Positions 7,740 to 57,978 of a DNA stretch of 64,000 nt are shown one piece after another. Position 1 is the first letter of the stretch. Each line of letters begins with the position of its first letter. This stretch comes from an uncultured Clostridia bacterium (GTDB lineage Bacteria; Bacillota; Clostridia; TANB77; CAG-508). The translations under genes and the position numbers were made by a program. The DNA lies in contig CANQJH010000001.1 of assembly GCA_947624195.1 (NCBI GenBank), forward strand, positions 49,233 to 113,232. Direction: 5' to 3'. The notes beneath the pieces were generated by a model that saw only the letters and a program-made list of their open reading frames with translations, made no database searches and was not told the DNA's origin.

Positions 7740-7840
7740 ACCGTGGTAAGAGTGATGTGAGGAACATTGATAGATTTCCAGAATATTATTTTGAAAAAAT
7801 CTATAAGAAGTGGAAAGCTGATAGAATTTAAAAATAAACT
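7740..7840 (+). repeat. diverged copy of the 3' end of the 144-aa gene at 11297..11731
   Basis: About 95 bp homologous to 11635..11731, including the near-identical run encoding KKS(I/V)RSGKLIEFKNK. Confidence 0.6.
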
Positions 7841-7900: not shown

Positions 7901-8033
7901 TTTATATACGTATTTTATACTAAAAAATAAACAAAATCAAGATATAAAAAAATTTTTTTATATAAATAAAATTTAAAATATAAAAAGTTCGCAAAGTGTT
8001 GATTTTAAAAGCTAATCTCCGAAAAATAAATTA

Positions 8034-8056
8034 TCATTAAGTACATTACTTAATGA
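8034..8056 (+). promoter_or_regulatory. perfect inverted repeat (10-bp arms, 3-bp spacer) 27 nt upstream of the start codon
   Basis: tcattaagta-cat-tacttaatga; the same arms recur at 9731..9753 upstream of the paralog. Confidence 0.5.
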
Positions 8057-8082
8057 TAAAAATTTGAGAGGAGCAAAAGATA

Positions 8083-9399
8083 ATGAAAAACAAAGGAATA
8101 ACACTAGTTGCGCTAGTAGTAACAATAGTAATTATGTTAATTTTGGCAGGGGTAACATTGAGATTAGCTTTAGGGGAAAATGGATTGTTTAATATATCAA
8201 AACAATCAGTTGAAAAGTATGAGGAATCAGTCCAAAACGAAGAAGAAGAATTAGATGAATTACTAGAAGAATTAAAGCATATAATGCCAGAAGAGGCAGG
8301 AAAAGAGGTAGAAGTACCAAAAGCAGAGAAAGATAAGTGGGATTTAACAAAAGTAACACCAACAGCAGACGGAAAAGGAAATACAATACCAGTACCAAAA
8401 AATTTTTATTATGTAGGAGGAGATAAAGACTCAGGATTTGTAATATCAAGTGTAAGTGGAGATGATCTAAACAATAGTAAAAAAGGTAATGAATTTGTAT
8501 GGGTACCAGTAAAAGTTATAAATGATATGGTAATGTGTAAGGAACATACAACAGCTACAATTACTTTTGATGGAGTAAATTTTTCTTGTGATGGAAATGG
8601 ACACCCACATACACCGAACAAAGAATACTTGGTAGGACAACTTTATACTCCGACTACGGATAATGGATTTACTGCAGGAATACCATATACAGAATATAAT
8701 GAAAACATAATAAGGGAACCAGGATTGACAACAGTGGATACAGATGAAAATTTATCTAATTTTTTACAGACTACATCAAATGAATTTTTACAGGAGTTAC
8801 AAGAAGAATTTTATAAAATGGCAAAAAGTGTAGCAAAATATGGAGGATTTTATATAGGCAGATATGAAACATCAGGTTTAAATGACGGCGAGGAACCAAA
8901 AGTACAATCGGGACTAGTACCAACGGGAAACATTAACTGGTATACAATCTACAAAAATAGTAAAAAAATAGCCCAAGAAGGTTCAAATGTAACAAGTAGT
9001 ATGATATGGGGAAGTCAATGGGACTATGTACTAAATTGGATGCAAGACATAGAAAATCCAACATTGACAGAAGAAAAGAAATATTACATTATGGACAGTA
9101 GAGGAATGGGTTGGTATTATGGAGAAACAGGAAACAATGAGCATAAAACAGGAATAGATTTGATAAAGGACGGAAAAGTAACCAATAAAGAAAAAAATAT
9201 TTATGATTTTGCAGGAAATTTTGAGGAATTAAATATGGCTTGCTCGGGCGGTACAGTACGTGCTTTACGTGGAGGATCTTATAAGCTGGAGGGAAATGTT
9301 CGTCCTGCTTGTAACCTTCGACTGGTAAGACCTGACGCTATATATGAGTGGGTTAGTAGTCGAGTTACACTTTGTATAAACTTGAATCCGGGGGAGTAA
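8083..9399 (+). CDS. pilin-like-anchored surface protein with a C-terminal FGE-sulfatase/C-type-lectin-like domain; candidate DGR target 1
   Basis: N-terminus KGITLVALVVTIVIMLILAGV resembles a type IV prepilin signal but lacks F+1 and E+5; a coiled-coil stalk follows. The C-terminal motifs IYDFAGNFEE, RGGSY and RLVR match the FGE-sulfatase fold. The 3' end is GC-rich and A-depleted. Confidence 0.8.
   Translation: MKNKGITLVALVVTIVIMLILAGVTLRLALGENGLFNISKQSVEKYEESVQNEEEELDELLEELKHIMPEEAGKEVEVPKAEKDKWDLTKVTPTADGKGNTIPVPKNFYYVGGDKDSGFVISSVSGDDLNNSKKGNEFVWVPVKVINDMVMCKEHTTATITFDGVNFSCDGNGHPHTPNKEYLVGQLYTPTTDNGFTAGIPYTEYNENIIREPGLTTVDTDENLSNFLQTTSNEFLQELQEEFYKMAKSVAKYGGFYIGRYETSGLNDGEEPKVQSGLVPTGNINWYTIYKNSKKIAQEGSNVTSSMIWGSQWDYVLNWMQDIENPTLTEEKKYYIMDSRGMGWYYGETGNNEHKTGIDLIKDGKVTNKEKNIYDFAGNFEELNMACSGGTVRALRGGSYKLEGNVRPACNLRLVRPDAIYEWVSSRVTLCINLNPGE
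9235..9396 (+). other. putative DGR variable-region-like patch in target 1
   Basis: Local GC far above the window background, depleted in A, with rare codons (TCG, GGC, CGT, CGA); coincides with the last beta-strands of the lectin-like fold. Confidence 0.45.
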
Positions 9400-9426
9400 C
9401 TTGATAGGTTCAAACTTATTTTTAAA

Positions 9427-9452
9427 CCAGAGCAGTTAGAGAGCTGCTCTGG
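9427..9452 (+). other. GC-stem hairpin just downstream of target 1, with no U-tract
   Basis: ccagagcagttagagagctgctctgg followed by gttgttgatg; positioned like a DGR VR-flanking hairpin rather than an intrinsic terminator. Confidence 0.45.
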
Positions 9453-9566
9453 TTGTTGATGATACAGTCAAATGAAAAAATATAAACGGAATAAAAGAAT
9501 TTCAATTATAGGAGAAATATTAGATAAAATAAATAATATTATAAAAAAATAAATTAAAAATTGTTA

Positions 9567-9783
9567 AATTGTCGTTAAGTAATATACTTGACGATATATT
9601 CATATATGTATTTTATACTAAAAAATAAACAAAATCAACACTTTATATAATTTTCTTTTTGAAATAAAATTGAAAATATAAAAAATCTGTAAAGTGTTGA
9701 TCCTCAAGACTAATCTCCACAAATAAATTATCATTAAGTATATTACTTAATGATAAAAATAAAAAATTGGAGAGGTGCGGAAG
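9567..9783 (+). repeat. duplicated 5' regulatory region (copy 2), including the operator-like palindrome at 9731..9753
   Basis: Homologous to 7870..8082; contains tcattaagta-tat-tacttaatga. Confidence 0.7.
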
Positions 9784-11076
9784 ATGATGAAAAACAAAGG
9801 AATAACACTAGTTGCTTTAGTAGTAACAATAATAATTATGTTAATTTTAGCAGGGGTGACATTAAATATTGCTTTAGGTGATAACGGATTAATAAAGCAA
9901 ACAAAAAAAGCAGCGGATTTAGCAAAAGAGTCTATGAAAAATGAGGAAGAAGATGTAGGAAAACTAGTTAATCAATTAGATGAAGTAATAAAAGAAAGTT
10001 TACCAAGTACAGTAAAAGAAGCAATAGAAACAGAAGAAATATTTACAGTTAATAAGAAAATAACGGATGAAAGTGGAAAAACAATGGTAGTACCAAAAGG
10101 CTTTAAAGTAATAGAAGAAACTAATATAGATAGTGGCGTAGTCATAGCAGACGGAGAAGGTAATGAGTTTGTATGGGTACCATGTGAAGATGGTGAATAT
10201 AAAAAACATGTATATGATGTAAAACAAATAGATGATGCTACTACTACTTTAGCTGATGGAGTAAACAAAGAAAAAGGTTGGACTACATTACAGTATAGAA
10301 AATATAGTGATTGGAAAGATGAAGTAGATGAAGTGGCAAATATAAAAAGTGTGGAAGATAATAAAGGATTTTATATAGCGAGATATGAAGCGGGTGTACC
10401 CAAGAATGCAGATTTTTATGTAGAGGCTTCTGCTGAAGGAGTTAAAAATAAAAATTATCCACAAAGTAAAAATGATATAAGTGATAATATAAAGCCAGTA
10501 AGTAAAAAAGGAGTGCAAACATGGAATTTAATAAGTCAAATAAATGCTAAAACCGTATCCGAAAGAATGTATAGCGGAGAATCTTACGGAGTAAGAAGTC
10601 AACTAGTAGATGGAACTGCATGGGACACTGCCGTAACATGGATGTCAAAAGAGTACGTAGGAATAGAAAAAAATAGTACAAATTATGGAAATTATAATAA
10701 CACACCTACAAAAGAAATAACAGGCTTATATGCAGCACATACTTATAGTGATGGTTGGCAATTAGCAACAAGTTATGGTTATGGAAAAAAAAGTATAGGT
10801 GGAAGAAGTAGTTTGAGAACTGAAATAGCGACAGGCTTAGTAAATGAGTTTAAACTAAAAAACATATATGATATGGCTGGAAATATGTATGAATGGACTA
10901 CAGAATATGGATATCATGATGGTGGAACCAGCAGTACAAAATATGTTGTTCAGCGAGGAGGATGTCCTACTGACGATGGTGGTGTCCACCCAGTTTCTGT
11001 TCGTAGTGGCTATTGGGCAGAAACGGTAGAAAATAATCCTGTATTTGGTTTTCGAGTTGTACTTTATGTAAAATAA
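9784..11076 (+). CDS. pilin-like-anchored protein with a C-terminal FGE-sulfatase-like domain; candidate DGR target 2, paralog of target 1
   Basis: Same N-terminal KNKGITLVALVVTIIIMLILAGV anchor and stalk. C-terminus carries IYDMAGNMYEWT, QRGGC and GFRVV. The ORF track starts at a GTG at 9775; the ATG at 9784 has a better RBS. Confidence 0.8.
   Translation: MMKNKGITLVALVVTIIIMLILAGVTLNIALGDNGLIKQTKKAADLAKESMKNEEEDVGKLVNQLDEVIKESLPSTVKEAIETEEIFTVNKKITDESGKTMVVPKGFKVIEETNIDSGVVIADGEGNEFVWVPCEDGEYKKHVYDVKQIDDATTTLADGVNKEKGWTTLQYRKYSDWKDEVDEVANIKSVEDNKGFYIARYEAGVPKNADFYVEASAEGVKNKNYPQSKNDISDNIKPVSKKGVQTWNLISQINAKTVSERMYSGESYGVRSQLVDGTAWDTAVTWMSKEYVGIEKNSTNYGNYNNTPTKEITGLYAAHTYSDGWQLATSYGYGKKSIGGRSSLRTEIATGLVNEFKLKNIYDMAGNMYEWTTEYGYHDGGTSSTKYVVQRGGCPTDDGGVHPVSVRSGYWAETVENNPVFGFRVVLYVK
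10920..11073 (+). other. possible variable-region-like 3' segment of target 2 (weaker composition signal)
   Basis: Moderately GC-enriched relative to the gene body; homologous in position to the patch in target 1 but with a codon indel relative to it. Confidence 0.3.
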
Positions 11077-11296: not shown

Positions 11297-11731
11297 TTGG
11301 AGAAATTAAACTTAGCAACAATAAATAAGGCTCATAGTAAAAACATAAAAATAGGTGAATTAAATGAGCAAGTTATAGAATTATTAAAATTAGATTTAAA
11401 ACCACAGAATATTAATATTTGGTCATCCAGATTAAAAGAACATTGTGAAAAACACAAAGATGAATACTCTAGTGTAAATGCATATAATCAAGCAATAAGA
11501 TTTATTCCGGAGATAATTAAAAATCCAGATTATGTTGGATTACATAGAAATGGTAATATTCAGTATGTAAAAAAGTTAGAAGACATATCTTTAGTCGGAA
11601 TACAAATTTTAAAAGGTAGTGGGCACTTATTATTTAGAACAATTTTCCCAATTTCAGAAACAAAGTTGAAAAAATCTGTAAGAAGTGGAAAGCTAATAGA
11701 ATTTAAAAATAAACAAAGAGAAAATACATAA
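11297..11731 (+). CDS. hypothetical protein, 144 aa
   Basis: Intact ORF whose 3' end is duplicated at 7740..7840; no family recognised with confidence. Confidence 0.5.
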   Translation: MEKLNLATINKAHSKNIKIGELNEQVIELLKLDLKPQNINIWSSRLKEHCEKHKDEYSSVNAYNQAIRFIPEIIKNPDYVGLHRNGNIQYVKKLEDISLVGIQILKGSGHLLFRTIFPISETKLKKSVRSGKLIEFKNKQRENT

Positions 11732-12148
11732 AGTATTTCCTCTTTTTAATTTTGGTTAATAGGTAGGACGGCGTACCCTACATCTACTTATAAGACCATC
11801 TCTGGCGTGATAGCTGCCACTTTCTATCCTCAATTAACCTACTATGAGTGTACTCATAATTTTAAAAATTATGCATTACCTATATGTAAATATATTACAA
11901 AAATCTCAATAAGTCAATAGGTTTTAATTATTTTTTACAATTGTTGAACTAATTATAACTATATTTTAACATATTATTATAATTATGTCAACGGCTAAGA
12001 TATAGAATTTTTTCGTTTGTGCCTTTTTTTACTTTTTAATTGTAAAAAAATTTACATACTTTATTTTAATATTCGCCTCACTTTAAATTATTTTTTGTTT
12101 TTTTGCTCCTTTCTATATTTTACCAGTACAAGATGACACAATCTCCCT

Positions 12149-12571
12149 GTGATAACTTTACATAATTTTTATGACTTTTTTATGCAACTAAACTCCTTAT
12201 ATTTTTTTCCTTATTTTTTATATGTCCTTTTGCCATTGTTAACATCACTACAAACGTTAAACTTAGCATTAAATTCATTTTCTTCAATCCTCGTATGGGA
12301 AAATAATTGGGATAATATTCAACCATTTTTCAAATATGGACCACAGACAAGAAAAATAATGTATACAACAAATGCGATTGAGAGTCTAAATAATTGTTAT
12401 AAAAGATTAAATAAAGGAAGACGAGTATTTCCAACGATTCAAGCACTAGAAAAAAGCATGTATTTATCAACTCAAATGATTATTGAAAAATGGACTAGCA
12501 GATATGCGAACTGGGGCGTAACATTGGCAGAATTAAATATTTATTTTCCAGATAGGGTAAATATAGATTAA
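12149..12571 (+). pseudogene. IS256-family transposase, C-terminal fragment only
   Basis: Residues IMYTTNAIESLNNCYKRLNKGRRVFPT...KWTSRYANWGVTLAELNIYFPDRV match the conserved C-terminus of IS256/mutator-type transposases. The catalytic N-terminal two-thirds are absent and the upstream part of the ORF is nonsense. Confidence 0.75.
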
Positions 12572-12870: not shown

Positions 12871-14826
12871 TTATTTAAAATTTTCCAATTCTTTAATTTT
12901 ATCTCTAACTTCTGCAGCCTTTTCAAATTCTAAGTTTTGAGCATAATTAATCATTTCATTTGTCAATCTATTAATTGCATCTTCCAAAGACTCATCTTTG
13001 TTAATAATAGAAGAACTTTTATCTTCAACTTCATAAGTAGCTTTAATTGTCTCTCTAATTTCTTTTTGAATAGTTTTAGGAGTTATATTGTTTTTTATGT
13101 TGTATTCTTCTTGAATTTTTCTTCTTCTATTTGTTTCAGATATAGCTCTATCCATTGATTCGGTAAGTTCATCTGCATACATTATAACTTTGCCGTCAGT
13201 ATTTCTAGCTGCTCTTCCTATGGTTTGTACTAAAGATCTTTCTGAACGTAAAAATCCTTCTTTATCAGCGTCTAAAATTGCAACAAGTGAAACTTCTGGT
13301 ATATCTAATCCCTCTCTTAAAAGGTTTATACCTACTAGTACATCAAACTTTCCTAAACGTAAATCTCTTATTATTTCCATCCTCTCTAGGGCTTTAATGT
13401 CTGAGTGCATATATCTCACTTTTATATCTAATCCAGCTAAGTATTTGGTTAAATCTTCTGCCATTTTTTTAGTTAAAGTTGTGACTAATACTCTTTCATT
13501 TTTCTTTGTTCTTTCGGTAATTTCTGCTATTAAATCATCAATTTGATTTTCAACAGGTTTAACTTCGATTTTAGGGTCAAGTAATCCGGTAGGACGTATA
13601 ATTTGTTCAACAACTCTATCTTTAGAGTGTTCTCTTTCATATTCTGCAGGAGTAGCACTTACGAAAATTGCTTGATTTATTCTTTGTTCAAATTCTTCGA
13701 ATTTTAAAGGTCTATTGTCAAATGCTGAAGGTAATCTAAATCCATATTCGACTAAAGTTTCTTTTCTTGCTCTGTCTCCATTATACATTGCTCTTACTTG
13801 TGGTATGGTGGCATGTGATTCGTCAACTAAAAGCAAAAAATCTTTAGGAAAATAATCAAATAGGGTAAAAGGGCTACTTCCGGGTTCTCTGCCACTGATA
13901 TGTCTTGAATAGTTTTCTATTCCTTGACAAAAACCAGTTTCTCTCATCATCTCTAAATCAAAGTTTGTTCTTTCTTCAATTCTTTGTGCTTCAAGTAATT
14001 TACCTTTTGCTTTAAAATAATTTATTCTTTCCTCTAATTCTTGCTGTATAGTAGTTATGGCTCTTTCCATTTTATCCTCTGTAGTAACATAGTGTGAATT
14101 AGGGAAAATCATAACATGGCTTCTAGTTCCTGCAATTTTTCCGGTTAGAGGATTAATTGCTTCAAGTTTTTCTATTTCATCACCCCAAAAGCTAACTCTA
14201 ATTGCAGTTTCACTTTCGTCAGATGGATAGATTTCTACAACGTCACCTTTGGCTCTGAAAGTTCCTCTTTTGAAATCTAATTCATTTCTGTTATATTGTA
14301 AGCTGATTAATTTTCTTAACAGTTCGTTTCTTTCTTTTTGCATACCAGGTCTTAGAGAAATAATCATATTTTCGTAATCAATAGGGTCTCCTAATCCATA
14401 TATACATGAAACAGAGGCAACAACTATAACATCTCTTGTTTCAAATAGGGAAGCTGTGGCTGAGTGCCTTAATTTATCTATTTCATCATTAATAGAAGCG
14501 TCTTTTTCTATGTAAGTATCAGAAGATGGGACATAAGCTTCTGGCTGGTAATAATCATAATATGATACAAAGTATTCAACATTATTTTCTGGAAAAAACT
14601 CTTTGAATTCACTATATAATTGTCCAGCTAATGTTTTATTGTGTGCTAAAACAAGAGTAGGCTTTTGTACTTGCTCTATGATATTGGCCATTGTAAAAGT
14701 TTTTCCGCTTCCAGTTACACCAAGCAAAGTCTGGAATTTCTTGCCGTCTTTGACTCCGTTACTCAAATATTCTATTGCCTGTGGCTGGTCCCCAGTCGGT
14801 TTGTAATTTGATACTAATTTGAACAT
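12871..14826 (-). CDS. uvrB: excinuclease ABC subunit B
   Basis: Walker A GVTGSGKT, helicase motifs, and a C-terminal UVR domain ([13 protein letters not shown]). The ATG at 14826 has an RBS; the ORF track extends to a TTG at 14841. Confidence 0.9.
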
Positions 14827-20191: not shown

Positions 20192-20388
20192 TAGTATATA
20201 GTATGTAAGTTTTTAAAAAATAATGAGTATAGTATTAGCTAGAATGCAAATTTCTTTCTCATAAATAAATTAAAAGCAGTTTAGTTTGTTGAAAAATCAA
20301 CATTATTGAACTGCTTTTGCTTTGCTTAGTTAAATATTAAAAATACAAATGAACATAAATATTTTTTTTGATTAATTTTATATTCTAA

Positions 20389-20598
20389 AAAAATTATTAT
20401 TAATTATATAGTTTAATAATAAATTTTTTCACTTAAAGTATATGGTATTAAAATATTTTTGTCAATACTATGTTGATAAAAATTTTTTTATTTTTTTCAT
20501 CAAAATAATTCAAAAAGCCTGATATAACTGTGAAACAAGTATTTTTAAATTATTATTAAACTATATATTTAATAATAAATAAAAAATAGGAGGAAACC
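20389..20598 (+). repeat. 5' regulatory region of target gene 3, duplicated (about 95% identity) upstream of target gene 4
   Basis: Near-identical to 24787..24994 down to the RBS (ataggaggaaaccatg). Confidence 0.8.
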
Positions 20599-21807
20599 AT
20601 GGAAAAACAAAAGAAACAAGGAATTTTGAACATTAAAAACAGTAAAGGTATAACGTTAGTAGCATTAGTAATAACCATAATAATAATGCTAATATTAGCA
20701 GGGGTGGCATTAAGACTAGCATTAGGAGAAAATGGTTTATTTAAAATGTCAGAGAAAGCAGTAGAGAAGTATAAAGAGGAAGCAGCAAAGGAAGAAAATA
20801 CACTAGGGAATATGGAAAAACAACTAAAGTACATGATAGAGGGCTATGTGCCAGACAGAAGTATGCTAAAAGTAGGAGATGAAGTAAATTATACGCCCCA
20901 AACGGCAAAAACGACATATACTTTAGAAGGTAACAAAAGTGGATACGGAGACTATACAAGTAGTAAACCTAAAACAATGACAAAAGCAACAGACCAAGAA
21001 ATAAGTCAAGAGAATTATACATGGAAGATAATGGACATAAATAGTAAAACAGGAGAAGTAAAAATAATGGGCGTACCAACAAGTAGTATGCCTACAGTAT
21101 ATTTCAAAGGAGCATTAGGATATAACAATGGAGTATATCTTTTGGATGATATATGTAAAACATTATATAGTAATAGTGACTTGGGAGTAACAGCAAGAAG
21201 TATAGATATAGAAGATATTGAAAGTAAAATGAATGACAAAGGAAGAGATGCAAAAAATGATTATATATCAGAAAATCAAACAACCAAAGAATTTAACGGA
21301 AGTAATGCATATTACCCTAACATATATAAATATCAACAAGATTCAAATATAGATGGAACAGAAAAGACAGAAGGAATAAGTGAAAGTGATGATGGAACAA
21401 AAACAGAAGCAGGAATACCAATTGAGCATGCAACAAATGTAGAAGGATATACACAAGCAGAAACAAGTATCACAGTAAAAGGAACATACTATTATGCAAC
21501 GCAAAATGCAGGATATTTTGATGATGAAGACTTTTACAATTTAATGTTTAAAACAGGTACATATTATTGGCTTGCTTCGCGTTATTCTGGTTGCTTCTCG
21601 AGTAGCTCTTGTGCTGACTTTGGGCTTCGCATTGTGGCCAGCTCTAGCATCAACGGTTACAAAATGTTCAATTCGGATGGCGATTACGACGACGACAATA
21701 TTCGCGTTTGCCCGGTAGTTTCTCTAGGGGCTAATATCCAAATCACAAGAGATGGAAACGCAGGAGCATGGGACTTATCGAAGGACCCAAATTTTGGTGG
21801 ATTTTAA
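20599..21807 (+). CDS. pilin-like-anchored protein with a C-terminal DUF1566/Fib_succ-major-like (C-type-lectin superfamily) domain; candidate DGR target 3
   Basis: N-terminus KGITLVALVITIIIMLILAGV plus an ALGENGLFKMSEKAVEKYKEE stalk shared with the other three targets. The C-terminus has YYW...NIRVCPVVSL resembling the YWSS...VRCVR motif of DUF1566. Confidence 0.75.
   Translation: MEKQKKQGILNIKNSKGITLVALVITIIIMLILAGVALRLALGENGLFKMSEKAVEKYKEEAAKEENTLGNMEKQLKYMIEGYVPDRSMLKVGDEVNYTPQTAKTTYTLEGNKSGYGDYTSSKPKTMTKATDQEISQENYTWKIMDINSKTGEVKIMGVPTSSMPTVYFKGALGYNNGVYLLDDICKTLYSNSDLGVTARSIDIEDIESKMNDKGRDAKNDYISENQTTKEFNGSNAYYPNIYKYQQDSNIDGTEKTEGISESDDGTKTEAGIPIEHATNVEGYTQAETSITVKGTYYYATQNAGYFDDEDFYNLMFKTGTYYWLASRYSGCFSSSSCADFGLRIVASSSINGYKMFNSDGDYDDDNIRVCPVVSLGANIQITRDGNAGAWDLSKDPNFGGF
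21561..21735 (+). other. putative DGR variable-region-like patch in target 3 (strongest composition signal)
   Basis: The first ~90 nt contain roughly 10% A by hand count, against roughly 35-40% A in flanking coding sequence. Dense TGC/TCG/CGC/GGC codons; the composition falls back to normal about 80 nt before the stop. Confidence 0.5.
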
Positions 21808-21810
21808 ATG

Positions 21811-21840
21811 CGCCTTGGAGGCCTTAGGTCTCCAGGCGAC
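21811..21840 (+). other. GC-stem hairpin 3 nt after the target 3 stop, with no U-tract
   Basis: gcgccttggag-gccttaggt-ctccaggcgac followed by taaagagg. Confidence 0.45.
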
Positions 21841-24786: not shown

Positions 24787-24994
24787 AAAATTATTATTAA
24801 TTATATAGATTAATAATAAATTTTTTCACTTAAAGTATATGGTATTAAAATATTTTTGTCAATACTATGTTGATAAAAATTTTTTTATTTTTTTCATCAA
24901 AATAATTCAAAAAGCCTGATATAACTGTGAAACAAGTATTTTTAAATTATTATTAAACTATATATTTAATAATAAATAAAAATAGGAGGAAACC
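24787..24994 (+). repeat. duplicated 5' regulatory region (copy 2) upstream of target gene 4
   Basis: See 20389..20598. Confidence 0.8.
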
Positions 24995-25981
24995 ATGAAA
25001 AAACAAAAGAAAGAAAACAAGTTCAACTTAAAAGAACAAGGTATAACGCTAGTTGCGTTAGTAGTAACAATAATAATACTTTTAATCTTAGCAGGAGTAA
25101 CAATCAACATAGCTTTAAGGGAAAATGGATTATTTAAAATGTCAGAGAAAGTAGTAGAGAAGTATAAGGAAGAAGCAGGAAAGGAAGAGGAAACATTACA
25201 GGATTTAGAACAACACATAAAAAATAATACACCCGTTGAACCAGCAGAAGAACCTAAAGAGCCTATAGGAAAAACACCGTATGTAGGATATTATGCAAGT
25301 AGAGATGGAATAACAGTAGATGGAATAATATATGCAGACCAAGCAGTAGGAAATACAAACGGAACAAAATGGAGTGATGGTGATGGAACCTACACAATAC
25401 CAATAAAAGAAGAAGGCTTAAAGGAATACTATATAAGTCAAGAATCATACACAACAGAAGCCTTTGGACCAAAACCTGTGTTAACACCAATAAATGATGA
25501 AGGAGAAGACAGATTTTATATCATGTCACTTGAAGATTTTGGAGGAAAAGGACAAAGTTATTATTGGTATTATAGCGCATTTAAAAATATGAGTGATTAT
25601 AGTACAGCAACATCAACAAAATTTGGAACTGGAAAAACCAATACAGAGAACATGGTAGCAAAGTGGACGGCGGGAGAAAGTGAAGATGGTTATGGAAAGC
25701 AAGATGGGGGAAGCACATATAAAGATATATGGGGATACTTTTCAAGAAAAGAAATACCAGAAGGATGGTTTTTACCATCAAGAGGAGAATTAGCAGCATT
25801 TATGCAAGAATTAGGGATAAACAGCAGTAATTATTCTAATCAATTTCAATTATCTAGTTATTACTGGTCGTCGTCGCAGTTCAATTTTAACTACGCATGG
25901 CTCGCGTACATGCTTATTGGTTGTATGAGCAGCTACACTGTGAATTACGGCCGCTGCGTGCGCCTGAGTGCGACTTTCTGA
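24995..25981 (+). CDS. pilin-like-anchored protein with a C-terminal DUF1566-like domain; candidate DGR target 4, immediately upstream of the RT
   Basis: N-terminus QGITLVALVVTIIILLILAGV and a conserved stalk. The C-terminus SSYYWSSSQFNFNYAWLAYMLIGCMSSYTVNYGRCVRLSATF fits the YWSS...AW...R.VRCVR signature. Confidence 0.75.
   Translation: MKKQKKENKFNLKEQGITLVALVVTIIILLILAGVTINIALRENGLFKMSEKVVEKYKEEAGKEEETLQDLEQHIKNNTPVEPAEEPKEPIGKTPYVGYYASRDGITVDGIIYADQAVGNTNGTKWSDGDGTYTIPIKEEGLKEYYISQESYTTEAFGPKPVLTPINDEGEDRFYIMSLEDFGGKGQSYYWYYSAFKNMSDYSTATSTKFGTGKTNTENMVAKWTAGESEDGYGKQDGGSTYKDIWGYFSRKEIPEGWFLPSRGELAAFMQELGINSSNYSNQFQLSSYYWSSSQFNFNYAWLAYMLIGCMSSYTVNYGRCVRLSATF
25855..25978 (+). other. putative DGR variable-region-like patch at the extreme 3' end of target 4
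   Basis: Roughly 18% A by hand count over ~120 nt. Contains TCG-TCG-TCG, GCG, CGC, GGC and CTG codons that are rare elsewhere in this AT-rich genome. Confidence 0.5.
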
Positions 25982-26004
25982 TTTTGTAAAAAATCAGAAA
26001 AATA

Positions 26005-26075
26005 TAGGCCTACATTATGTAAATAATGTAGGCAATTCAAACCGAGATATTCTTCGTAAGAAGAAACTCGGTTTG
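26005..26075 (+). other. two consecutive stem-loops between target 4 and the RT, neither followed by a U-tract
   Basis: taggcctacatt...aatgtaggc (26005..26033) and caaaccgag...ctcggtttg (26038..26075), the latter with a nested ttcttcgtaagaagaa palindrome. Confidence 0.5.
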
Positions 26076-26178
26076 AATTAAAAGGATTAGATTGATAAAA
26101 GGAAATTTATTATAGAAAATGCGAGTTTCATTATATTAAGTTTAAATACTCTTCTTATGAAGAGTATTTTTATAAGAG

Positions 26179-27321
26179 GTGTATATGGATAATAAGCTAA
26201 CTTTTGAAGATTTATATGAAGCATATAATTTATGTTTAAAAAATAAAAAAAATAAAATAGGAACATATAATTTTGTAAACTATAATTTATGCAAAAATTT
26301 AATGGAGCTACTAGAAGAATTAAATAATAAACAATACATTCAAAGACAATCTAATTGTTATGTAGTTAAGGATCCAGCATTGAGAGAAATATATGCAGCT
26401 CAATTTTTTGACAGAGTAGTACAGCATTTTTATATGAAAGAAGTAGAACATATTTTAGAAGAACAATTAGTTGACGGTTGTTGTTCATGTAGAAAAAATA
26501 AAGGTAATGATTATGCTCTTCAATTATTAAAGAAATATCTTAAAGTAGTATCGAATAATGGGAAAAAAGACTGTTACTTTCTTAAAATTGATTTATCTGG
26601 ATATTTTATGTCAATAGATAGAAAGCAAATAAGTCAAAAGTTCTTAAATCTTATAAGCAATAAATATAAAGGACCATATAAAGAATTACTCATTTATTTA
26701 ACTCCAATTATATTTGAAAATAATCCGGCAGTGAACTGTAAGTATAAATGTAATGAAAAAGTAAGAAACCTAGTACCTGAAAGAAGAAAAATGAATCCGA
26801 AATCCGATTATGGAATGGCTATAGGTAATTTGACTTCTCAGGCAGGTAGCAATTTTAATCTCAGTGAATTTGATAATTACGTTGTATATAAACTAAATCT
26901 AGTTAATTATATTAGATATGTTGACGATATGGTGATAATTTCAAATAATAAACAAGAGTTACAAAATGCAATGCCGTATATAATAAATAAACTTAAAGAA
27001 ACTAATCAATCTATAAGTGAAAAGAAAACTAAAATAGATACTGCGTATCATGGAGTACCATTTTTGGGAAAAGTTTCTTTTCCATACGGTTATCAAAAAG
27101 CTAAAAAATCGACAATAGTGAGAGTATATAAAAGGGGTAGAGAAATTAGATATAAGGACACAGACAATTTATTAGCAAAAACAAATTCGCAAATTGGATT
27201 GCTAAAAGGATATAACTGCAGAAAACTAATATTAAATTATTCTAAAATTATACAAAACAAAACGGGAGACGAAATTTATTTGAATGAAGAAATGTTAAAA
27301 TTTTGTAAAAAGAATAAATAA
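26179..27321 (+). CDS. diversity-generating retroelement reverse transcriptase
   Basis: RT motifs ALREIYAAQFFDRVVQH (motifs 1/2), LKIDLSGYFMSIDRK (motif 3), AIGNLTSQ (the DGR-specific GxxxSQ motif 4) and YVDDMVII (motif 5). The likely start is the ATG at 26185 with an aagagg RBS; the track begins at a GTG at 26179. Confidence 0.85.
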   Translation: MYMDNKLTFEDLYEAYNLCLKNKKNKIGTYNFVNYNLCKNLMELLEELNNKQYIQRQSNCYVVKDPALREIYAAQFFDRVVQHFYMKEVEHILEEQLVDGCCSCRKNKGNDYALQLLKKYLKVVSNNGKKDCYFLKIDLSGYFMSIDRKQISQKFLNLISNKYKGPYKELLIYLTPIIFENNPAVNCKYKCNEKVRNLVPERRKMNPKSDYGMAIGNLTSQAGSNFNLSEFDNYVVYKLNLVNYIRYVDDMVIISNNKQELQNAMPYIINKLKETNQSISEKKTKIDTAYHGVPFLGKVSFPYGYQKAKKSTIVRVYKRGREIRYKDTDNLLAKTNSQIGLLKGYNCRKLILNYSKIIQNKTGDEIYLNEEMLKFCKKNK

Positions 27322-27411: not shown

Positions 27412-28338
27412 ATGTATGATGATTATTTTAAAAATATAATTGGTGGAAGTATAAAGTCTCCAGAATACTATGTTTCTACATATGATAACCATACTTATCA
27501 GCCTAGACAAGTAAGTGCTCTTCCAGGATACAATTATTCTGCCGATACAAATTTTAATGACAATGACATTGAAGATTTATATCCAGATATTTATAAAATT
27601 GTATCCCCAATGGTAGATAAACTTTTAGACGGAAAAACTTTTGATAATGTAAATGAAGACATGTTGGTAAAATGGACTGTGGAAATCTATGATGCTCTTG
27701 AAGTTGATGATGATAATACCAAATTAGTAAATGATAATGTTGCTAAAACTGGCAGTAGTGTTATTTCTAATGGTACTAGTAGATCAAATGTAAATCAAGG
27801 AGTTGCAGGTAATAGTAGCAATAATACTATAAGACCTGGCTCTAACTATGAAAGTGAAACTACTAGCGCAAGGACTGCACAGAGAACGGTGCTATCTAAT
27901 ACAGTTGCAAATACACCTTCTAATACTATGACTAAAGCGGGAATAACTACACCTTCTTCTACAATAAGTAGTACAGCGGTCAATACATCATCTAATTCGA
28001 TAACTAATACAGGAGTAAGCGCATCACCTAATACAGTAAATAATGCAACAGTCAATGCAATATCTAATTCTACAACAAATAAAGAACCAAAAGTGGTTGA
28101 TGTAGTAAGTAGATATAGAAATTATAAAAATCCGCTTCTAAGGGATTTAATAAGAATATTGATTTTAAATAAATTATATGGAAATCGTAGACCGCCAAGA
28201 GGTATGCCAAGACCTTATCAAGACTTTGAACCAACATTTATTCCTATGCCAGATTATAGTAGTGTAAACACAGAAGTTTATAAACCTTATACTAATTATT
28301 CTAAAGCTTACTTAGACACACCTTATCCAGAAGAATAA
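27412..28338 (+). CDS. hypothetical protein with an S/T/N-rich low-complexity core and a Pro/Tyr-rich C-terminus
   Basis: The RBS is embedded in a hairpin (cctcactacat...atgtaggagg). The middle third is repetitive SNT/ANT; possibly a spore-coat-like structural protein. Confidence 0.45.
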   Translation: MYDDYFKNIIGGSIKSPEYYVSTYDNHTYQPRQVSALPGYNYSADTNFNDNDIEDLYPDIYKIVSPMVDKLLDGKTFDNVNEDMLVKWTVEIYDALEVDDDNTKLVNDNVAKTGSSVISNGTSRSNVNQGVAGNSSNNTIRPGSNYESETTSARTAQRTVLSNTVANTPSNTMTKAGITTPSSTISSTAVNTSSNSITNTGVSASPNTVNNATVNAISNSTTNKEPKVVDVVSRYRNYKNPLLRDLIRILILNKLYGNRRPPRGMPRPYQDFEPTFIPMPDYSSVNTEVYKPYTNYSKAYLDTPYPEE

Positions 28339-31723: not shown

Positions 31724-34700
31724 ATGAATAAAATAGAACAAAAAAAATTGATGCAATTTTTGTATCAACATAAAGACGCAGTTTTTATTTTTAACTATAA
31801 TTTTATAGAAGATAGTCTTTTAGAAGAGGGAAAACATATAATAAGTCCACATAGAGATGGTGATACTATATTTAATTTTATTGTAGAAAATAGTGAAGTT
31901 ATAGATTTTAAAAAGTTCGTATTGTTTGGAGCATATAGTTCAAAAGTTGTAGTGTCATCACTAAATAATATTACAAATGATGGTATTTCAACACCATCTA
32001 AAGAATATTATGAAACTTTTTATAAATTTGCTAAGGAAAATATAAAAGAGAATGAAGACGTAACATTATTTGTATTCCCATCAGGTAAAAAAATGGGTAT
32101 TGTGGCTGTCAACTCAAAAAAAGAACTATATGGAAAAGAATATGTTCCAAAGAAATTAAGAATAAATCCAGAAGCTTATAAAGACTTAGTAGGAGCTGTT
32201 CAATTAGATAGTATAAAACACATATTTAAGGACAGCAATTTTGCATCTTTGGCATATGACATATTAGTCTATAATACGTTAACTCAGATGGGATATAAAG
32301 ATGCAGATATTGCTGGAATTATGGATAAAGAGACTGGAGCATTCGAATTTAGAACGTCTAAAGAATTTATAATGAATTTCCTTGATGCAAAGACACGTTT
32401 ATTCTTTGTTCCAGAAGTTACATCTCAAATTAATGAAGATAATTTATATATTACATCTGTTTATCAATTTATTGGTAAATTAAGTGCAGATATTAAAAGG
32501 TATCATGAATTAAATGAAGAAGAACGTAAATCTATGGATTTGTTTTCATTGAGAGAACTTGAAAGAGTGAAATATTTATTAGAAGAAGTTGAGAAAGCTA
32601 TAAACTTCAATAAAGTTACGGTTCTTATAAAAAATGTAGTTACTGGAGAGGAAGTAAAAGAAATATCTGCGAAAGTATATAGTAATGATTACAAAAGTGC
32701 TTTAAGTGAGTATGCTAAACTATTAATAGATAGAGACAATAAAAACATATTCAATCCTGACATACTTGCATTGCTTGATAAGAAGACAGCTTTACATTAT
32801 GCTGAGAAAATTCCAGATATGTACGCTGAGGAATTTAATTTCTTGTTATATGAAGCTAATTGTTTAACATTTAGTGAAGCATTAGAAAACATTAAAAAAA
32901 TTGGAATTAGTGATATAAATGAGGAATTTTTAAGGTTAAGAGCTGTGGATAGATACTTGACTGGAAGAAATAATACTTTAATGGATGTTGTAAATCAAAT
33001 TGGAATGAAAACAAGGAGAACTGATATAGGTGATACCTCGGCTCCGGAAAATGGTCAGCTTAATGTTACAGACGAAGCACAGGGCTCAGACATGGTAACT
33101 AATATTGAAAGACCTGAAGTTATGTTTGCGAAACCATTATCAGATGAAAATTTATATGAATTACTAGATGATACACTTAAAGCCATGTTTGTGAACGGTG
33201 CAATTAAAGAATATCTTGCCAAGGGCAAATACAGTGATATAGCTGAAAAAAATCTTAAATTATTCCATGCAAAGGGAGAACTACCTTTAGATGCATTCAT
33301 GACCTTTTATTCATATTTTGGAATGGATTTGGAAGTCATTGAAGAAATGTTTGGAAGCGAAAATGTTAAAAATACATTTAGTGCAGAACAATTGCTTTCA
33401 ACAGTTAACGATTTAATCGAGTATAGCAAAAAAGGCACTAAAACAGAGCAAGATGAAGAAAATCATACATACATTGTCAAAGATTATGAGTACTTAAAGA
33501 AAATATATCAAAAATATAATTTACTAAATGTCGATAATAATGAAGATAAAATATTAGAGGCATTTGATGATTTGATTTTTGATGATAATATTTTCAAACA
33601 ACTTTATGTTGATGGATTTATCTCAGGTAAGACTTTATATGATTTTAATAATGAACTAGCTAACAAACTTTACACTGAGGGAGAATTGAGAAGTGAAGAT
33701 AGACGATACTTTATTTTAAATTCGGGTATAGAACTTAGTGTTGGTGATATAATTAGATTAAATCAAGAAAAAGTTTTATCACATCAAGATGTTTTTGATT
33801 TTTATATGAAAGATAAAATCAATTTACAAGATTTAGCTAATTATGGCGAGGATATAGATTTTAGCGAAATTTTAAAAGATGATGAGTTAATAGCATTAGC
33901 GAAAAAATACAGCATGATAAGGAAAGATGATGCAAAAAATACATTTAACAAATACTTAGATGCATATATGAAATTCAAAAAGCCAGGATTGGACATACAA
34001 GAAAAATTATTAAAATCAATTGGAGGAAAAAATGCTAAAAATGAAGACTTACTAGAGCTATATTCTAAAGGCGTATTAAATATTGAAACAATTAATCCTA
34101 GTGATGATTTGCTTTTATTAATGATTAAACAGGGAAGATTAAAATCAGGGGATGAAGAACTACTATTTAAAGATACTGATATGCAAGGTACAAAGTATGT
34201 AAGATTAATGTCAATTTTGAGAAAACTAGATAGTGATGATGAGAAATTAAACTTACTAGCTGGTGTATACAAAACTGAAGATGAGGTATCATCAAGAAGA
34301 CTAAATATATTGGCAAATGAACTTTCATATGCATTTAACGAAGAGGGCGGCACAACATTGGGAGATGAATTACTTGACGATGATAATGCTAGCATAAAAC
34401 GTAAAGATAACGAAAATGATAAGCCTAAGTCAAAAGTTACAGTAGTAAGATCGCTTGCAAAAATGTTTGATACATTTAAGAGCATTAAAACAGATTATGA
34501 ACATATAATACTTTCTGGTACTTATGTAGTATTTTTAGATGATTCTGCATTAGTAGAAGAAGTATTTAGAAAATCAGCAGATGGCAAAAGTTTTGTTACT
34601 ACACATGCTACTTATAAAATTTCTGATGAATTTTTTAAACATTTCTTAAAAGATACATATAACTATGACTTTAGAAAAAATTTATCTGATTTCTTTATTG

Positions 34701-35044
34701 ATGTAAATAGAGAAGGTAAACCATATTTTAAATGGTCACTTTTAACAGCTGCAAGAAGAAGAAATATACCTGGAATTGATAAAGTTGTACATGGAAAAAC
34801 TTGGGCTGATAGATTAAAAGCAAAAGCAATAAAGAAGCCAGATATTGACGGACAAGAATTAAATGACGTGTTGGATAAAATTTCGAATTCAGCTCAAATA
34901 CGTGGTGTACATACAGATCTAGATGATGACAGCATTGATAAAAGTGCAATGAATAATTTTGATCCAGATGCAATGGTTGATTTAGACTCAAGTACAATGG
35001 GTGATTTTGACCCAAATGCAATGGTTGATTTTGAAGAAATATAA
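31724..35044 (+). CDS. large soluble hypothetical protein (1106 aa) with C-terminal FDP(D/N)AMVD repeats
   Basis: No transmembrane segment or known catalytic motif; a tandem DFDPNAMVD repeat sits at the extreme C-terminus. Confidence 0.5.
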   Translation: MNKIEQKKLMQFLYQHKDAVFIFNYNFIEDSLLEEGKHIISPHRDGDTIFNFIVENSEVIDFKKFVLFGAYSSKVVVSSLNNITNDGISTPSKEYYETFYKFAKENIKENEDVTLFVFPSGKKMGIVAVNSKKELYGKEYVPKKLRINPEAYKDLVGAVQLDSIKHIFKDSNFASLAYDILVYNTLTQMGYKDADIAGIMDKETGAFEFRTSKEFIMNFLDAKTRLFFVPEVTSQINEDNLYITSVYQFIGKLSADIKRYHELNEEERKSMDLFSLRELERVKYLLEEVEKAINFNKVTVLIKNVVTGEEVKEISAKVYSNDYKSALSEYAKLLIDRDNKNIFNPDILALLDKKTALHYAEKIPDMYAEEFNFLLYEANCLTFSEALENIKKIGISDINEEFLRLRAVDRYLTGRNNTLMDVVNQIGMKTRRTDIGDTSAPENGQLNVTDEAQGSDMVTNIERPEVMFAKPLSDENLYELLDDTLKAMFVNGAIKEYLAKGKYSDIAEKNLKLFHAKGELPLDAFMTFYSYFGMDLEVIEEMFGSENVKNTFSAEQLLSTVNDLIEYSKKGTKTEQDEENHTYIVKDYEYLKKIYQKYNLLNVDNNEDKILEAFDDLIFDDNIFKQLYVDGFISGKTLYDFNNELANKLYTEGELRSEDRRYFILNSGIELSVGDIIRLNQEKVLSHQDVFDFYMKDKINLQDLANYGEDIDFSEILKDDELIALAKKYSMIRKDDAKNTFNKYLDAYMKFKKPGLDIQEKLLKSIGGKNAKNEDLLELYSKGVLNIETINPSDDLLLLMIKQGRLKSGDEELLFKDTDMQGTKYVRLMSILRKLDSDDEKLNLLAGVYKTEDEVSSRRLNILANELSYAFNEEGGTTLGDELLDDDNASIKRKDNENDKPKSKVTVVRSLAKMFDTFKSIKTDYEHIILSGTYVVFLDDSALVEEVFRKSADGKSFVTTHATYKISDEFFKHFLKDTYNYDFRKNLSDFFIDVNREGKPYFKWSLLTAARRRNIPGIDKVVHGKTWADRLKAKAIKKPDIDGQELNDVLDKISNSAQIRGVHTDLDDDSIDKSAMNNFDPDAMVDLDSSTMGDFDPNAMVDFEEI

Positions 35045-53615: not shown

Positions 53616-53696
53616 ATTTATTTTTCCTTTCTTGGCTTAAAATTTGCACGCACTTAACATTAAATTTAATCTATTAACTAATAATAATTCTAACAA

Positions 53697-57477: not shown

Positions 57478-57607
57478 ACCTTCTTTTTGATAGTATTATA
57501 TAAGTAAAGCACCTTACAGCTTATCATTTTATCATAAATTTACACATATATCAAGTTTTTAGGCAAATAAAAAATGTAAAGTTTTTGCACTTTACATTTA
57601 TAGTAAA

Positions 57608-57940
57608 TCTATAAGCCGGGTTCTGTCTAGAATGGTCATTTATCTAGGATATATATTGCTATATACCTCAAGCCACCAAATTTAGAGGACGACGAGCAGT
57701 CTTAACCCTCTAGTCTCGGTGTTGCTCCAGATGGGGTTTACACGGCTAGATGTATCACTACATCTACGGTGAGCTCTTACCTCGCCTTTTCACCCTTACC
57801 ATTTACATGGCGGTTATTTTCTGTTGCACTTTCCTTAAGGTTACCCTCACTTGACGTTATCAAGCATCCTTGCTCTACGGAGCCCGGACTTTCCTCATAC
57901 GCTGCCTTTCGGCCTTGCAATACGCGACCATTTAACTTAC
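57608..57940 (-). ncRNA. rnpB: RNase P RNA
   Basis: Minus-strand sequence contains GAGGAAAGTCCGGGCTCC, GGTAAGGGTGAAAAGGCGAGGTAAGAGCTCACC and the 3' ACAGAACCCGGCTTA. A hairpin plus T-run terminator follows. The track ORFs 57769..57960 and 57777..57977 are spurious. Confidence 0.8.
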
Positions 57941-57978
57941 TAAATTTAATTATACAATGATTTGCGTGCTTTGTCAAA

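What the first reader, a model, noticed from the sequence alone, without database searches (positions are those of the whole stretch)
20599..21807. Third family member with a DUF1566-like lectin-fold C-terminus and an internal hypervariable-looking patch
It has the same anchor and stalk as the 8083..11076 pair but a different C-terminal module. That module (YYW...NIRVCPVVSL) resembles DUF1566/Fib_succ-major, also in the C-type-lectin clan and also reported as a DGR target scaffold. The aberrant-composition patch (21561..21735) ends about 80 nt before the stop codon. A variable region is likewise normally bounded on its 3' side by a conserved IMH-like segment.
Basis: partly seen in the sequence, partly recalled or inferred. 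Interest (0 to 1): 0.8.

Follow-up and report, generated by a model that had tools for sequence, protein, structure and literature searches.

The report
Orphan DGR target gene, template missing
This gene encodes a membrane-anchored surface protein whose lectin-like tip carries a 153-base hypervariable patch of the kind written by a diversity-generating retroelement, but the template repeat needed to rewrite it is absent from this part of the genome, so it is an ordinary though previously unannotated example of a known system.

Summary
The ORF 20599..21807 (402 aa) is real. The odd patch is real too, and I refine it to 21568..21720: A is 0.18 there against 0.47 in the gene body, and GC is 0.49 against 0.30.

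It is one of four paralogs, not three. They share a pilin-like N-terminal helix and stalk, and each ends in an A-depleted patch.

The patch behaves as a DGR variable region (VR):
- Close homologs differ mainly there (identity 0.57-0.76, against 0.80-0.95 upstream).
- The differences fall on columns that are adenines in the template repeat (TR) of a related locus (OR 12.7, p=4e-9).
- In that locus (L016) the homologous patch has a TR with 89% A-site mismatches. Ten population variants there differ only in the patch.

No TR for this VR exists in the window or 10 kb either side. A DGR reverse transcriptase lies 4.4 kb downstream (26179..27321). It belongs to a different clade and has lost its own accessory gene and TR.

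Verdict: a genuine DGR target of an unannotated family, orphaned here. Current activity is undetermined.

The parts
20390..20585 (+). Upstream non-coding segment (promoter / 5' leader region). It is repeated at 99% identity upstream of the fourth paralog (24787-24982).
   Evidence: the repeat finder family D4
20588..20593 (+). Shine-Dalgarno AGGAGG, 5 nt before the ATG
   Evidence: direct reading
20599..21807 (+). ORF of 402 aa: the DGR variable-protein (target) gene, called 'm3' in this report
   Evidence: The identical protein (P0001) is on 4 assembled contigs.
20599..20841 (+). N-terminal module shared by the four paralogs. It holds the KGITLVALV...LILAGV hydrophobic pilin-like helix (residues 13-38) and a long helical stalk (to about residue 81).
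   Evidence: Pfam N_methyl is weak: 16.9 bits against a cut-off of 21.2. AF2 helices 15-42 and 47-81. hhalign to the m4 family gives 96.6% probability for the N-terminus only. PilE1 E=0.049.
20866..21567 (+). Conserved body of the globular head (residues 90-323). No Pfam family matches it.
   Evidence: AF2 pLDDT above 90. No Pfam hit in 66 family members.
21568..21720 (+). Variable region (VR), 51 codons, WLASRYSGCFSSSSCADFGLRIVASSSINGYKMFNSDGDYDDDNIRVCPVV. It is A-depleted and hypervariable between homologs.
   Evidence: It is homologous to VRs with cognate TRs in L016 and L083.
21715..21728 (+). IMH-like 14-mer GTAGTTTCTCTAGG at the 3' VR boundary. Related TRs carry GTAGATTCTATAAAC instead.
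   Evidence: It is exactly conserved at the same place in 19 copies in other loci, and 18 further copies differ by 1 mismatch. TR/VR homology decays here in L016 and L083.
21811..21838 (+). GC-rich hairpin just after the stop codon, with no T-run. It is conserved in the closest homolog, L003.
   Evidence: strand folding gives dG -10.2, z -2.8. It is not terminator-like. Alignment.
24995..25981 (+). Fourth paralog ('m4'), a DUF1566-like target. Its VR, about 25858-25978, is homologous to the VR/TR of the cassettes around related RTs.
   Evidence: Pfam Lcl_C is weak, E=0.0024. Alignment to the L009 VR and TR.
26122..26129 (+). The last 8 nt of the lost m4-type template repeat (CGAGTTTC), followed by the conserved spacer hairpin that precedes the RT gene
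   Evidence: alignment with L009 and L006
26179..27321 (+). DGR-type reverse transcriptase (IGNLTSQ and YVDD motifs). The ORF is intact, but it lacks the accessory gene, TR and MutS_I gene that its relatives have.
8083..9399 (+). Paralog 'm1': same anchor and stalk, with an A-depleted 3' patch at about 9219-9399
9775..11076 (+). Paralog 'm2': same anchor and stalk, a weak FGE-sulfatase match, and an A-depleted 3' patch at about 10926-11045

Best explanation
The gene encodes a variable protein (target) of a diversity-generating retroelement (DGR). The protein has three parts:
- an N-terminal pilin-like hydrophobic helix that anchors it in the membrane;
- a helical stalk that carries the head;
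- a globular head with a C-type-lectin-like topology.

The last beta-strands and loops of the head are encoded by a 153-nt variable region (21568..21720).

That region was written by mutagenic retrohoming. In this process a template repeat (TR) rich in AAC/AAT codons is transcribed and reverse-transcribed, with random misincorporation opposite adenines. The cDNA then replaces the VR, guided by the IMH-like sequence at its 3' end.

In relatives, the machinery for this scaffold lies immediately downstream of the target: an MutS-like gene, an Avd-like gene, the TR and an RT. In this genome that cassette is not at the locus. The only RT nearby belongs to another clade and has lost its own TR.

The gene is therefore an orphan target. 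Its present VR sequence is a product of past DGR activity, recent on the scale of about 5% flanking divergence. It can be rewritten now only if a matching TR exists elsewhere in the genome.

Shown: the VR signature, the family-level TR/VR pairs, and the absence of a local TR. Inferred: surface exposure, ligand binding, and the present activity state. I put 'frozen' at about 0.5, 'rewritten in trans' at about 0.35, and the rest on 'not DGR-written at all' and on what I cannot assign.
For: 1. Composition. A is 0.18 and GC 0.49 in the VR, against 0.47 and 0.30 in the body, with sharp boundaries. This is expected if scaffold codons must avoid adenine.

2. Hypervariability confined to the patch. 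Identity to the homologs in L003, L004 and L002 is 0.66-0.76 in the VR (0.57-0.76 over all pairs among the four). It is 0.82-0.95 in the 600 nt upstream and about 0.8 downstream. Variable codons are mostly NNC/NNT.

3. Adenine columns predict the differences. Columns that are A in the TR of L016 predict where the window and its closest homolog differ: 24 of 42 A columns against 10 of 105 others, OR 12.7, p=4e-9.

4. Cognate TRs in relatives.
- In L016 the homologous VR has a TR 1 kb downstream: 154 nt, 27 mismatches, 89% at TR adenines. L083 shows the same.
- Eleven of the 12 metagenome loci that carry the TR 3' motif have TRs of this kind, translating to WLASR-, RLASR- or WVAAR-type scaffolds that all end in ..FNSN..RPVD.
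- These TRs sit next to MSL, Avd-like and RT genes. m3-family targets sit beside them in L102, L104 and L106.

5. Population variation. The L016 ortholog's 90% cluster has 10 members. Apart from alternative N-termini in three of them (one is shorter), they are identical except between YWLASR and RVRPVVSL.

6. IMH-like element. The 14-mer GTAGTTTCTCTAGG is conserved at nucleotide level at the VR end in proteins only 35-45% identical.

8. Orphan status.
- There is no TR in the window or in 10 kb on either side.
- There is no MSL or Avd homolog in the window.
- The window RT is only 24% identical to the RTs that accompany this scaffold.
- That RT lacks the 153-aa gene, TR and MutS_I gene that its closest relatives keep.
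Against: - No TR cognate to this particular VR was found anywhere, so A-specific TR/VR mismatches could not be shown for this gene itself. The argument rests on homology and on indirect statistics.
- No sequence model of a known DGR-target domain matches.
- Some third-codon-position differences between homologs are not explained by one shared TR.
- The protein is identical on all 4 contigs that carry it, and its 90% cluster has a single member. So no ongoing diversification is seen, although the lineage was sampled only about 4 times.
Confidence: 0.8

Rival explanations
1. The gene is an active remote target. A cassette with a matching TR (MSL, Avd, TR and RT of the L016 type) lies elsewhere in the same genome and still rewrites this VR in trans.
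For: - Remote targets more than 100 kb from the RT are documented (Wu et al. 2018, PMC5758913, read). Metagenome surveys miss them (Roux et al. 2021, PMC8144416).
- The ORF is intact, the VR boundaries are sharp, and the IMH-like 14-mer is perfectly conserved.
- The closest homolog is 94.5% identical upstream but 76% identical in the VR, so diversification is recent.
- 90 of 92 family copies in 78 genome loci lack a TR within 10 kb, yet most are still A-depleted.
Against: - Wherever a TR for this scaffold was found next to a target, it lies 70 nt to 2 kb downstream of that target.
- In the MAG that holds the L016 cassette, the second family copy (L045) mismatches that TR at 32 of 105 non-A positions.
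- 13 paralogs in one MAG do not share one scaffold sequence.
- No VR variants of this protein are on record.
- The rest of the genome could not be read.
Confidence: 0.35
2. The neighbouring reverse transcriptase (26179..27321) is the enzyme that diversifies this gene and the other three paralogs, using templates located elsewhere.
For: - The RT ORF is intact, with its catalytic motifs, although its own TR is gone. That could mean it is still under selection.
- Four VR-bearing paralogs lie within 18 kb of it.
Against: - Relatives of this RT (72-74% identity) always sit in a cassette with a DUF1566-like target, a 153-aa gene, a TR and a MutS_I gene.
- The m3 scaffold is always found with a different RT clade, about 24-27% identical.
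- No TR of any of the four VR types is in the window.
- The four VRs are unrelated in sequence, so three or four separate TRs would be needed.
Confidence: 0.08
3. The patch is not DGR-derived. It would be a mosaic from recombination or gene conversion among paralogs, or from horizontal transfer of a GC-richer module, kept variable by ordinary diversifying selection.
For: - The family is multi-copy.
- The N-terminal module and the upstream region clearly recombine: there is a 99% identical 196-nt upstream repeat, and N-terminal identity to L003 is patchy.
- No TR was found for this gene.
Against: - Specific depletion of A rather than a general GC shift.
- Variation concentrated on columns homologous to TR adenines.
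- Identical architecture to proven TR/VR pairs.
- Nucleotide-level conservation of the IMH-like element.
- The same signature at the 3' ends of all four paralogs, which have unrelated heads.
Confidence: 0.05

Closest known systems
DGR variable proteins with C-type-lectin-fold VRs (Bordetella phage Mtd, Treponema TvpA, Legionella LdtA and similar)
   Same: - The VR lies at the 3' end of the ORF.
- Scaffold residues are invariant, with hypervariable positions encoded by NNC/NNT codons.
- An IMH-like element sits at the VR 3' end.
- The head has lectin-like topology.
- Relatives have TRs with A-specific mismatches.
   Different: - No sequence match to FGE-sulfatase, DUF1566 or any other Pfam domain.
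- The N-terminus is a pilin-like helix plus stalk.
- In this genome no TR accompanies the gene.
MSL-containing DGR cassettes (Architecture D of Wu et al. 2018, PMC5758913)
   Same: Relatives of this target are followed by a MutS_I-like small gene, an Avd-like gene, a TR and an RT.
   Different: - The whole cassette is missing at this locus.
- In several relatives the RT is on the opposite strand.
- In L016 the RT is split by a group II intron.
Legionella Lcl C-terminal domain / Pfam PF07603 (DUF1566)
   Different: - No HMM match at E<=0.1.
- hhalign against the DUF1566-like fourth paralog's family aligns only the N-terminus.
DGR-diversified pilus-tip adhesins of Bacteroides type V pili (bioRxiv 10.1101/2024.11.15.621889; only the title and the start of the abstract were seen, in the listing)
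   Same: The idea is the same: a DGR diversifies the distal binding module of a filament- or stalk-borne surface protein in gut bacteria.
   Different: - A different phylum and a different anchoring system. Here it is a type-IV-pilin-like N-terminal helix that lacks Glu5 and scores below the Pfam threshold.
- No pilus assembly genes are in the window.

Membership tests
DGR target gene (variable protein) | A cognate template repeat in the same genome that differs from the VR almost only at TR adenines | tested here: not met
   No TR in the window or in 10 kb on either side, by identity scan, A-aware scan and blastn with word size 7. A genome-collection pattern scan gave 0 hits. The rest of the genome is not available, so absence is shown only for about 84 kb.
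DGR target gene (variable protein) | Variation confined to a discrete 3' segment and directed at template adenines | tested here: met
   VR identity is 0.57-0.76 against 0.80-0.95 upstream. Differences are enriched at columns homologous to adenines of the L016 TR (OR 12.7, p=4e-9). The orthologous family member with a TR shows patch-only population variation. This evidence is indirect for this gene.
DGR target gene (variable protein) | A DGR-type reverse transcriptase in the genome | tested here: met
   26179..27321: RVT_1 E=5e-15, IGNLTSQ and YVDD motifs. The best PDB sequence match is 8ub7 (328-aa 'Reverse transcriptase', E=6.6e-18). I believe from memory that this is the Bordetella phage DGR RT. 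It belongs to a clade not associated with this scaffold, and it has no TR.
DGR target gene (variable protein) | An IMH-type cis element at the VR 3' end, distinct from the TR's version | tested here: inconclusive
   GTAGTTTCTCTAGG is at 21715-21728 and is conserved at nucleotide level across the family. Related TRs have GTAGATTCTATAAAC. Function was not tested. Part of the conservation may reflect the VVSLG peptide.
C-type-lectin-like fold (CLec) variable domain | The predicted or solved structure superposes on CTLD or DGR CLec domains | tested here: met
Pfam PF07603 Lcl_C (DUF1566) | An HMM match at or above the gathering threshold (34.9 bits) | tested here: not met
   No hit at E<=0.1 for this protein and none at E<=0.01 for 66 family members. 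The fourth paralog scores only 18.6 bits.
NCBIfam TIGR02145 Fib_succ_major | An HMM match | tested here: not met
   No hit at E<=0.1.
Type IV pilin / pseudopilin (PF07963 N_methyl) | A class III signal peptide (G | F/I-T-L-x-E) that passes the model threshold, plus a prepilin peptidase and assembly genes | tested here: inconclusive
   - N_methyl scores 16.9 bits, below the 21.2 cut-off. Only 12 of 66 family members match, and weakly.
- The motif is KG|ITLVA, with Ala rather than Glu at +5 (direct reading).
- The profile against PDB sequences gives PilE1 E=0.049.
- No pilus genes were found among the window ORFs tested.

The most novel reading that the evidence does not exclude
The orphan copies may not be relics. 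They could be a standing repertoire of retrohoming-competent recipients.

On this reading, four paralogs share a stalk, carry three unrelated lectin-like heads, and each keeps an A-poor VR. At least m3 also keeps a family-wide conserved IMH-like element. They would be re-armed whenever a matching TR cassette is present elsewhere in the chromosome or arrives on a mobile element. The P0004 homolog does sit in an ICE-like region.

The TR-less but intact RT at 26179 would then work with distant templates. That would be a distributed DGR with several templates and several targets, rather than a compact cassette.
Probability: 0.12. Interest if true: 0.65.

Novelty: new member of a known kind. Interest (0 to 1): 0.4.

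Why it matters
- It adds an unannotated and very large family to the catalogue of DGR targets. More than 3,500 homologs were found. The 78 genome loci fetched come mostly from uncultured gut Clostridia MAGs. No Pfam domain covers the head.
- Most copies surveyed (90 of 92) stand alone, without a template within 10 kb. Surveys that require the RT, TR and VR on one contig will miss them.
- The anchor and stalk are shared between heads of different types. That suggests modular exchange of binding domains on one display scaffold.
- For this particular gene, the practical point is that its sequence is the output of targeted hypermutation, not of ordinary divergence. Its tip should therefore not be used for phylogeny or for orthology calls.

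Tried and rejected
1. TR search inside the window. I used an ungapped identity scan (best 0.47), an adenine-aware scan (0 hits), blastn with word size 7, and a search for the conserved TR 3' motif. All were negative for all four paralog VRs.

2. Pattern scans for the m3 VR/TR scaffold. Viral contigs gave 0 hits and genome contigs gave 0 hits. This lineage is not among the GTDB representatives.

3. A synthetic 'TR translation' query against the protein database. No candidates were returned, so the search was wasted.

4. Walking the contig beyond 10 kb on each side.

5. RT protein and family alignment against viral contigs. This gave nothing for the RT and one distant relative without a TR.

6. 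Foldseek against the PDB gave no significant match. The afdb50 library was unavailable.

7. The idea that the hairpin after the stop codon is a terminator. It has no T-run and the scan does not call it.

8. The idea that one TR serves all paralogs in a multi-copy genome. I rejected it for the E14 bin6 and chicken MAGs, because scaffold positions differ between copies.

Full report
**Observation.**

The ORF 20599..21807 (+) is real. It has 402 codons, an ATG start, and AGGAGG five bases upstream.

Its first 80 residues are a KGITLVALV...LILAGV hydrophobic helix followed by a long helical stalk.

- GC rises to 0.44-0.50 in a window whose mean is 0.297.
- AT skew changes sign.
- Adenine falls from 0.455 in the gene body to 0.07-0.27.

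All four paralogs have such an A-poor 3' end.

**What the patch is.**

More than 3,500 homologs exist, and none carries a Pfam domain. The 78 genome loci fetched come mostly from uncultured gut Clostridia MAGs.

Alignment of the closest homologs shows invariant scaffold residues, YWLASR.S.C.S..A.FGLR.V...G...F.S...RV.PVVSL. Hypervariable positions lie between them.

At the DNA level the variable codons are mostly NNC/NNT, flanked by runs of identical bases.

Pairwise identity among the window gene and its three closest homologs:

| Segment | Identity |
|---|---|
| 153-nt patch | 0.57-0.76 |
| 600 nt upstream | 0.80-0.95 |
| Downstream | about 0.8 |

**Related loci with a template.**

I fetched 78 related loci from species-representative genomes and screened every locus for repeat pairs whose mismatches fall on adenines of one copy.

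The control cassettes around relatives of the window RT were recovered, with 92-96% of mismatches at A. Two family members also scored:
- In L016 the VR at the 3' end of the family gene matches a TR 1 kb downstream over 154 nt, with 27 mismatches, 89% of them at TR adenines. The TR translates to WLASRYANCNSTNANFGLRNVNNSNLNGNNMFNSNGTTNSNNNRVRPVD.
- L083 has the complete set: target, MutS-like gene, Avd-like gene, RT and TR.

The 3' end of these TRs (CGCCCNRTAGATTCTATAAAC) is conserved. A metagenome scan with a slightly relaxed form of it returned 12 loci. Eleven carry TRs of this kind, translating to WLASR-, RLASR- or WVAAR-type scaffolds that all end in ..FNSN..RPVD. They sit next to MSL, Avd-like and RT genes, and m3-family targets lie beside them in L102, L104 and L106.

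The L016 protein belongs to a 90% cluster of ten sequences. Apart from alternative N-termini in three of them, they are identical except between YWLASR and RVRPVVSL. That is the textbook population signature of an active DGR.

**Transfer to the window gene.**

The patch 21568..21720 aligns codon for codon with these VRs and TRs.

Columns that are adenine in the L016 TR predict where the window gene and its closest homolog (L003) differ. Differences fall on 24 of 42 A columns and on 10 of 105 other columns (odds ratio 12.7, p=4e-9).

TR/VR homology in L016 and L083 decays at GTAG|TTTCTCTAGG. The same 14-mer is at 21715-21728. It is exactly conserved at the equivalent place in 19 copies in other loci, and 18 more differ by one mismatch, although those proteins are only 35-45% identical. 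This fits an IMH-type cis element.

A GC hairpin without a T-run follows the stop codon and is conserved in L003.

**Fold.**

The AlphaFold model built on 66 sequences is confident: mean pLDDT 85.4, and above 90 across the head.

This supports a lectin-like topology at modest scores. Foldseek against the PDB found nothing.

Sequence models do not support membership of DUF1566 or Fib_succ_major:
- Pfam and NCBIfam give no hit for this protein or for 66 relatives.
- hhalign against the DUF1566-like fourth paralog's family aligns only the anchor and stalk.

The pilin-like nature of the N-terminus is also only suggestive. N_methyl scores below threshold, there is no Glu5, PilE1 scores E=0.049, and no pilus genes were found among the window ORFs tested.

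**The machinery in this genome.**

A reverse transcriptase gene lies at 26179..27321, directly after the fourth paralog. It has the IGNLTSQ and YVDD motifs. Its best sequence match in the PDB is 8ub7, a 328-residue reverse transcriptase (E=6.6e-18). From memory, I believe that entry is the Bordetella phage DGR enzyme.

Its relatives (72-74% identity) sit in a canonical cassette. The order is a DUF1566-like target with VR, a 153-aa gene, a TR, the RT, and a MutS_I gene.

In the window, the 153-aa gene and all but the last 8 nt of the TR are missing between the target and the RT. The MutS_I gene is absent as well.

This RT is only about 24% identical to the RT clade that accompanies the m3 scaffold.

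No TR for any of the four paralog VRs exists in the window or in 10 kb on either side.

**Active or frozen?**

For recent activity:
- L003 is 94.5% identical upstream but only 76% identical in the VR.
- The ORF and the IMH-like element are intact.

For a frozen state:
- Where a TR was found next to a target, the cassette lies within about 2 kb of it.
- Orphan copies in genomes that do have a cassette do not match its TR (L045 against the L016 TR, 32 of 105 non-A mismatches).
- Thirteen paralogs in one MAG lack a common scaffold sequence.
- The window protein is identical on all four contigs that carry it, and it has no near-identical variants on record.

I cannot settle this without the rest of the genome. 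I put 'frozen' at about 0.5 and 'rewritten in trans' at about 0.35.

**Comparison with what is known.**

- DGR targets with lectin-like VRs, MutS-like and Avd accessory genes, and remote targets are all described (Wu et al. 2018, PMC5758913).
- Metagenome surveys cannot see targets that are not next to the RT (Roux et al. 2021, PMC8144416).
- I found no paper linking DGRs to prepilin-like proteins. Two related searches, 'pilin' with Clostridia and 'type IV pil', returned papers, but only the first was opened. It cites DGRs only in passing, and its single 'pilin' match was not shown in the excerpts.
- Diversification of Bacteroides type V pilus adhesins is the nearest analogue (bioRxiv 10.1101/2024.11.15.621889, title and start of abstract only).

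This is therefore a new, unannotated member family of a known kind. It is found here in an orphaned state next to a decayed DGR of another clade.

Noticed in passing
window 24995-27321: A decayed DGR cassette. The order is a DUF1566-like target with its VR (about 25858-25978), conserved post-VR hairpins, the last 8 nt of the TR (26122-26129), the spacer hairpin, and an intact RT gene. The 153-aa accessory gene, the TR body and the downstream MutS_I gene are present in all examined relatives but missing here.
   Followed up: yes
window 20390-20585 and 24787-24982: A 196-nt non-coding segment is 99% identical upstream of the third and fourth paralogs, although their coding regions are only 65-82% identical. 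This suggests recent gene conversion or a shared regulatory module.
   Followed up: partly
window 8024-8063, 9721-9760, 20387-20426: An AT-rich palindromic 40-mer (AAATAAATTATCATTAAGTA.ATTACTTAATGATAAAAAT) lies upstream of paralogs 1 and 2 at 98% identity. A 75% copy lies upstream of paralog 3. It looks like an operator site.
   Followed up: no
window 8083-9399 and 9775-11076: The two FGE-sulfatase-like paralogs also end in A-depleted, GC-richer patches (about 9219-9399 and 10926-11045), with no TR in the window. Paralog 2's patch matches a paralog in the ICE-like locus L002 at 67%.
   Followed up: partly
L016 12529-16118 (minus strand): The DGR RT of this chicken-gut MAG is encoded opposite to its TR. 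It appears to be split by a group II intron that carries its own RT/maturase-HNH ORF (13373..14761).
   Followed up: no
L083 3027-4245 and 5215-6113: The target gene is frameshifted or stopped inside its VR, and the RT is split into two ORFs. This is either an assembly artefact from mixed VR alleles or a decaying cassette.
   Followed up: no
L002 6589-11152: Three tandem stalk-sharing paralogs, one of them FGE-sulfatase-like, lie inside an ICE-like region with a T4SS coupling protein, an integrase, ArdC and PcfJ. No RT or TR is within 10 kb.
   Followed up: partly
window 11297-11838 and 7791-7839 / 11666-11714: A PBECR3/PBECR2 nuclease-like gene (144 aa) is followed on the opposite strand by a skipping-rope RNA (Rfam RF02924, 63 bits). 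A 49-nt piece of the gene's 3' end is repeated at 96% near 7791.
   Followed up: no
window 12149-12571: A C-terminal fragment of a Mutator-family (IS256-like) transposase. It is a remnant of an insertion sequence between the paralog pair and uvrB.
   Followed up: no
window 57596-57943 (minus strand): RNase P RNA, class A (289 bits). It explains the GC-rich, A-poor stretch there.
   Followed up: yes
window 27412-28338: A 308-aa ORF directly after the RT has a long Ser/Thr/Asn-rich low-complexity centre and no family match. It replaces the MutS_I gene found after the RT in relatives.
   Followed up: no
window 52425-54890 (minus strand): Two tandem acetate kinase paralogs, 73-78% identical at DNA level.
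   Followed up: no
window 31724-35044: A 1106-aa ORF without a Pfam match. It ends in 24-nt tandem repeats (34942-35034).
   Followed up: no
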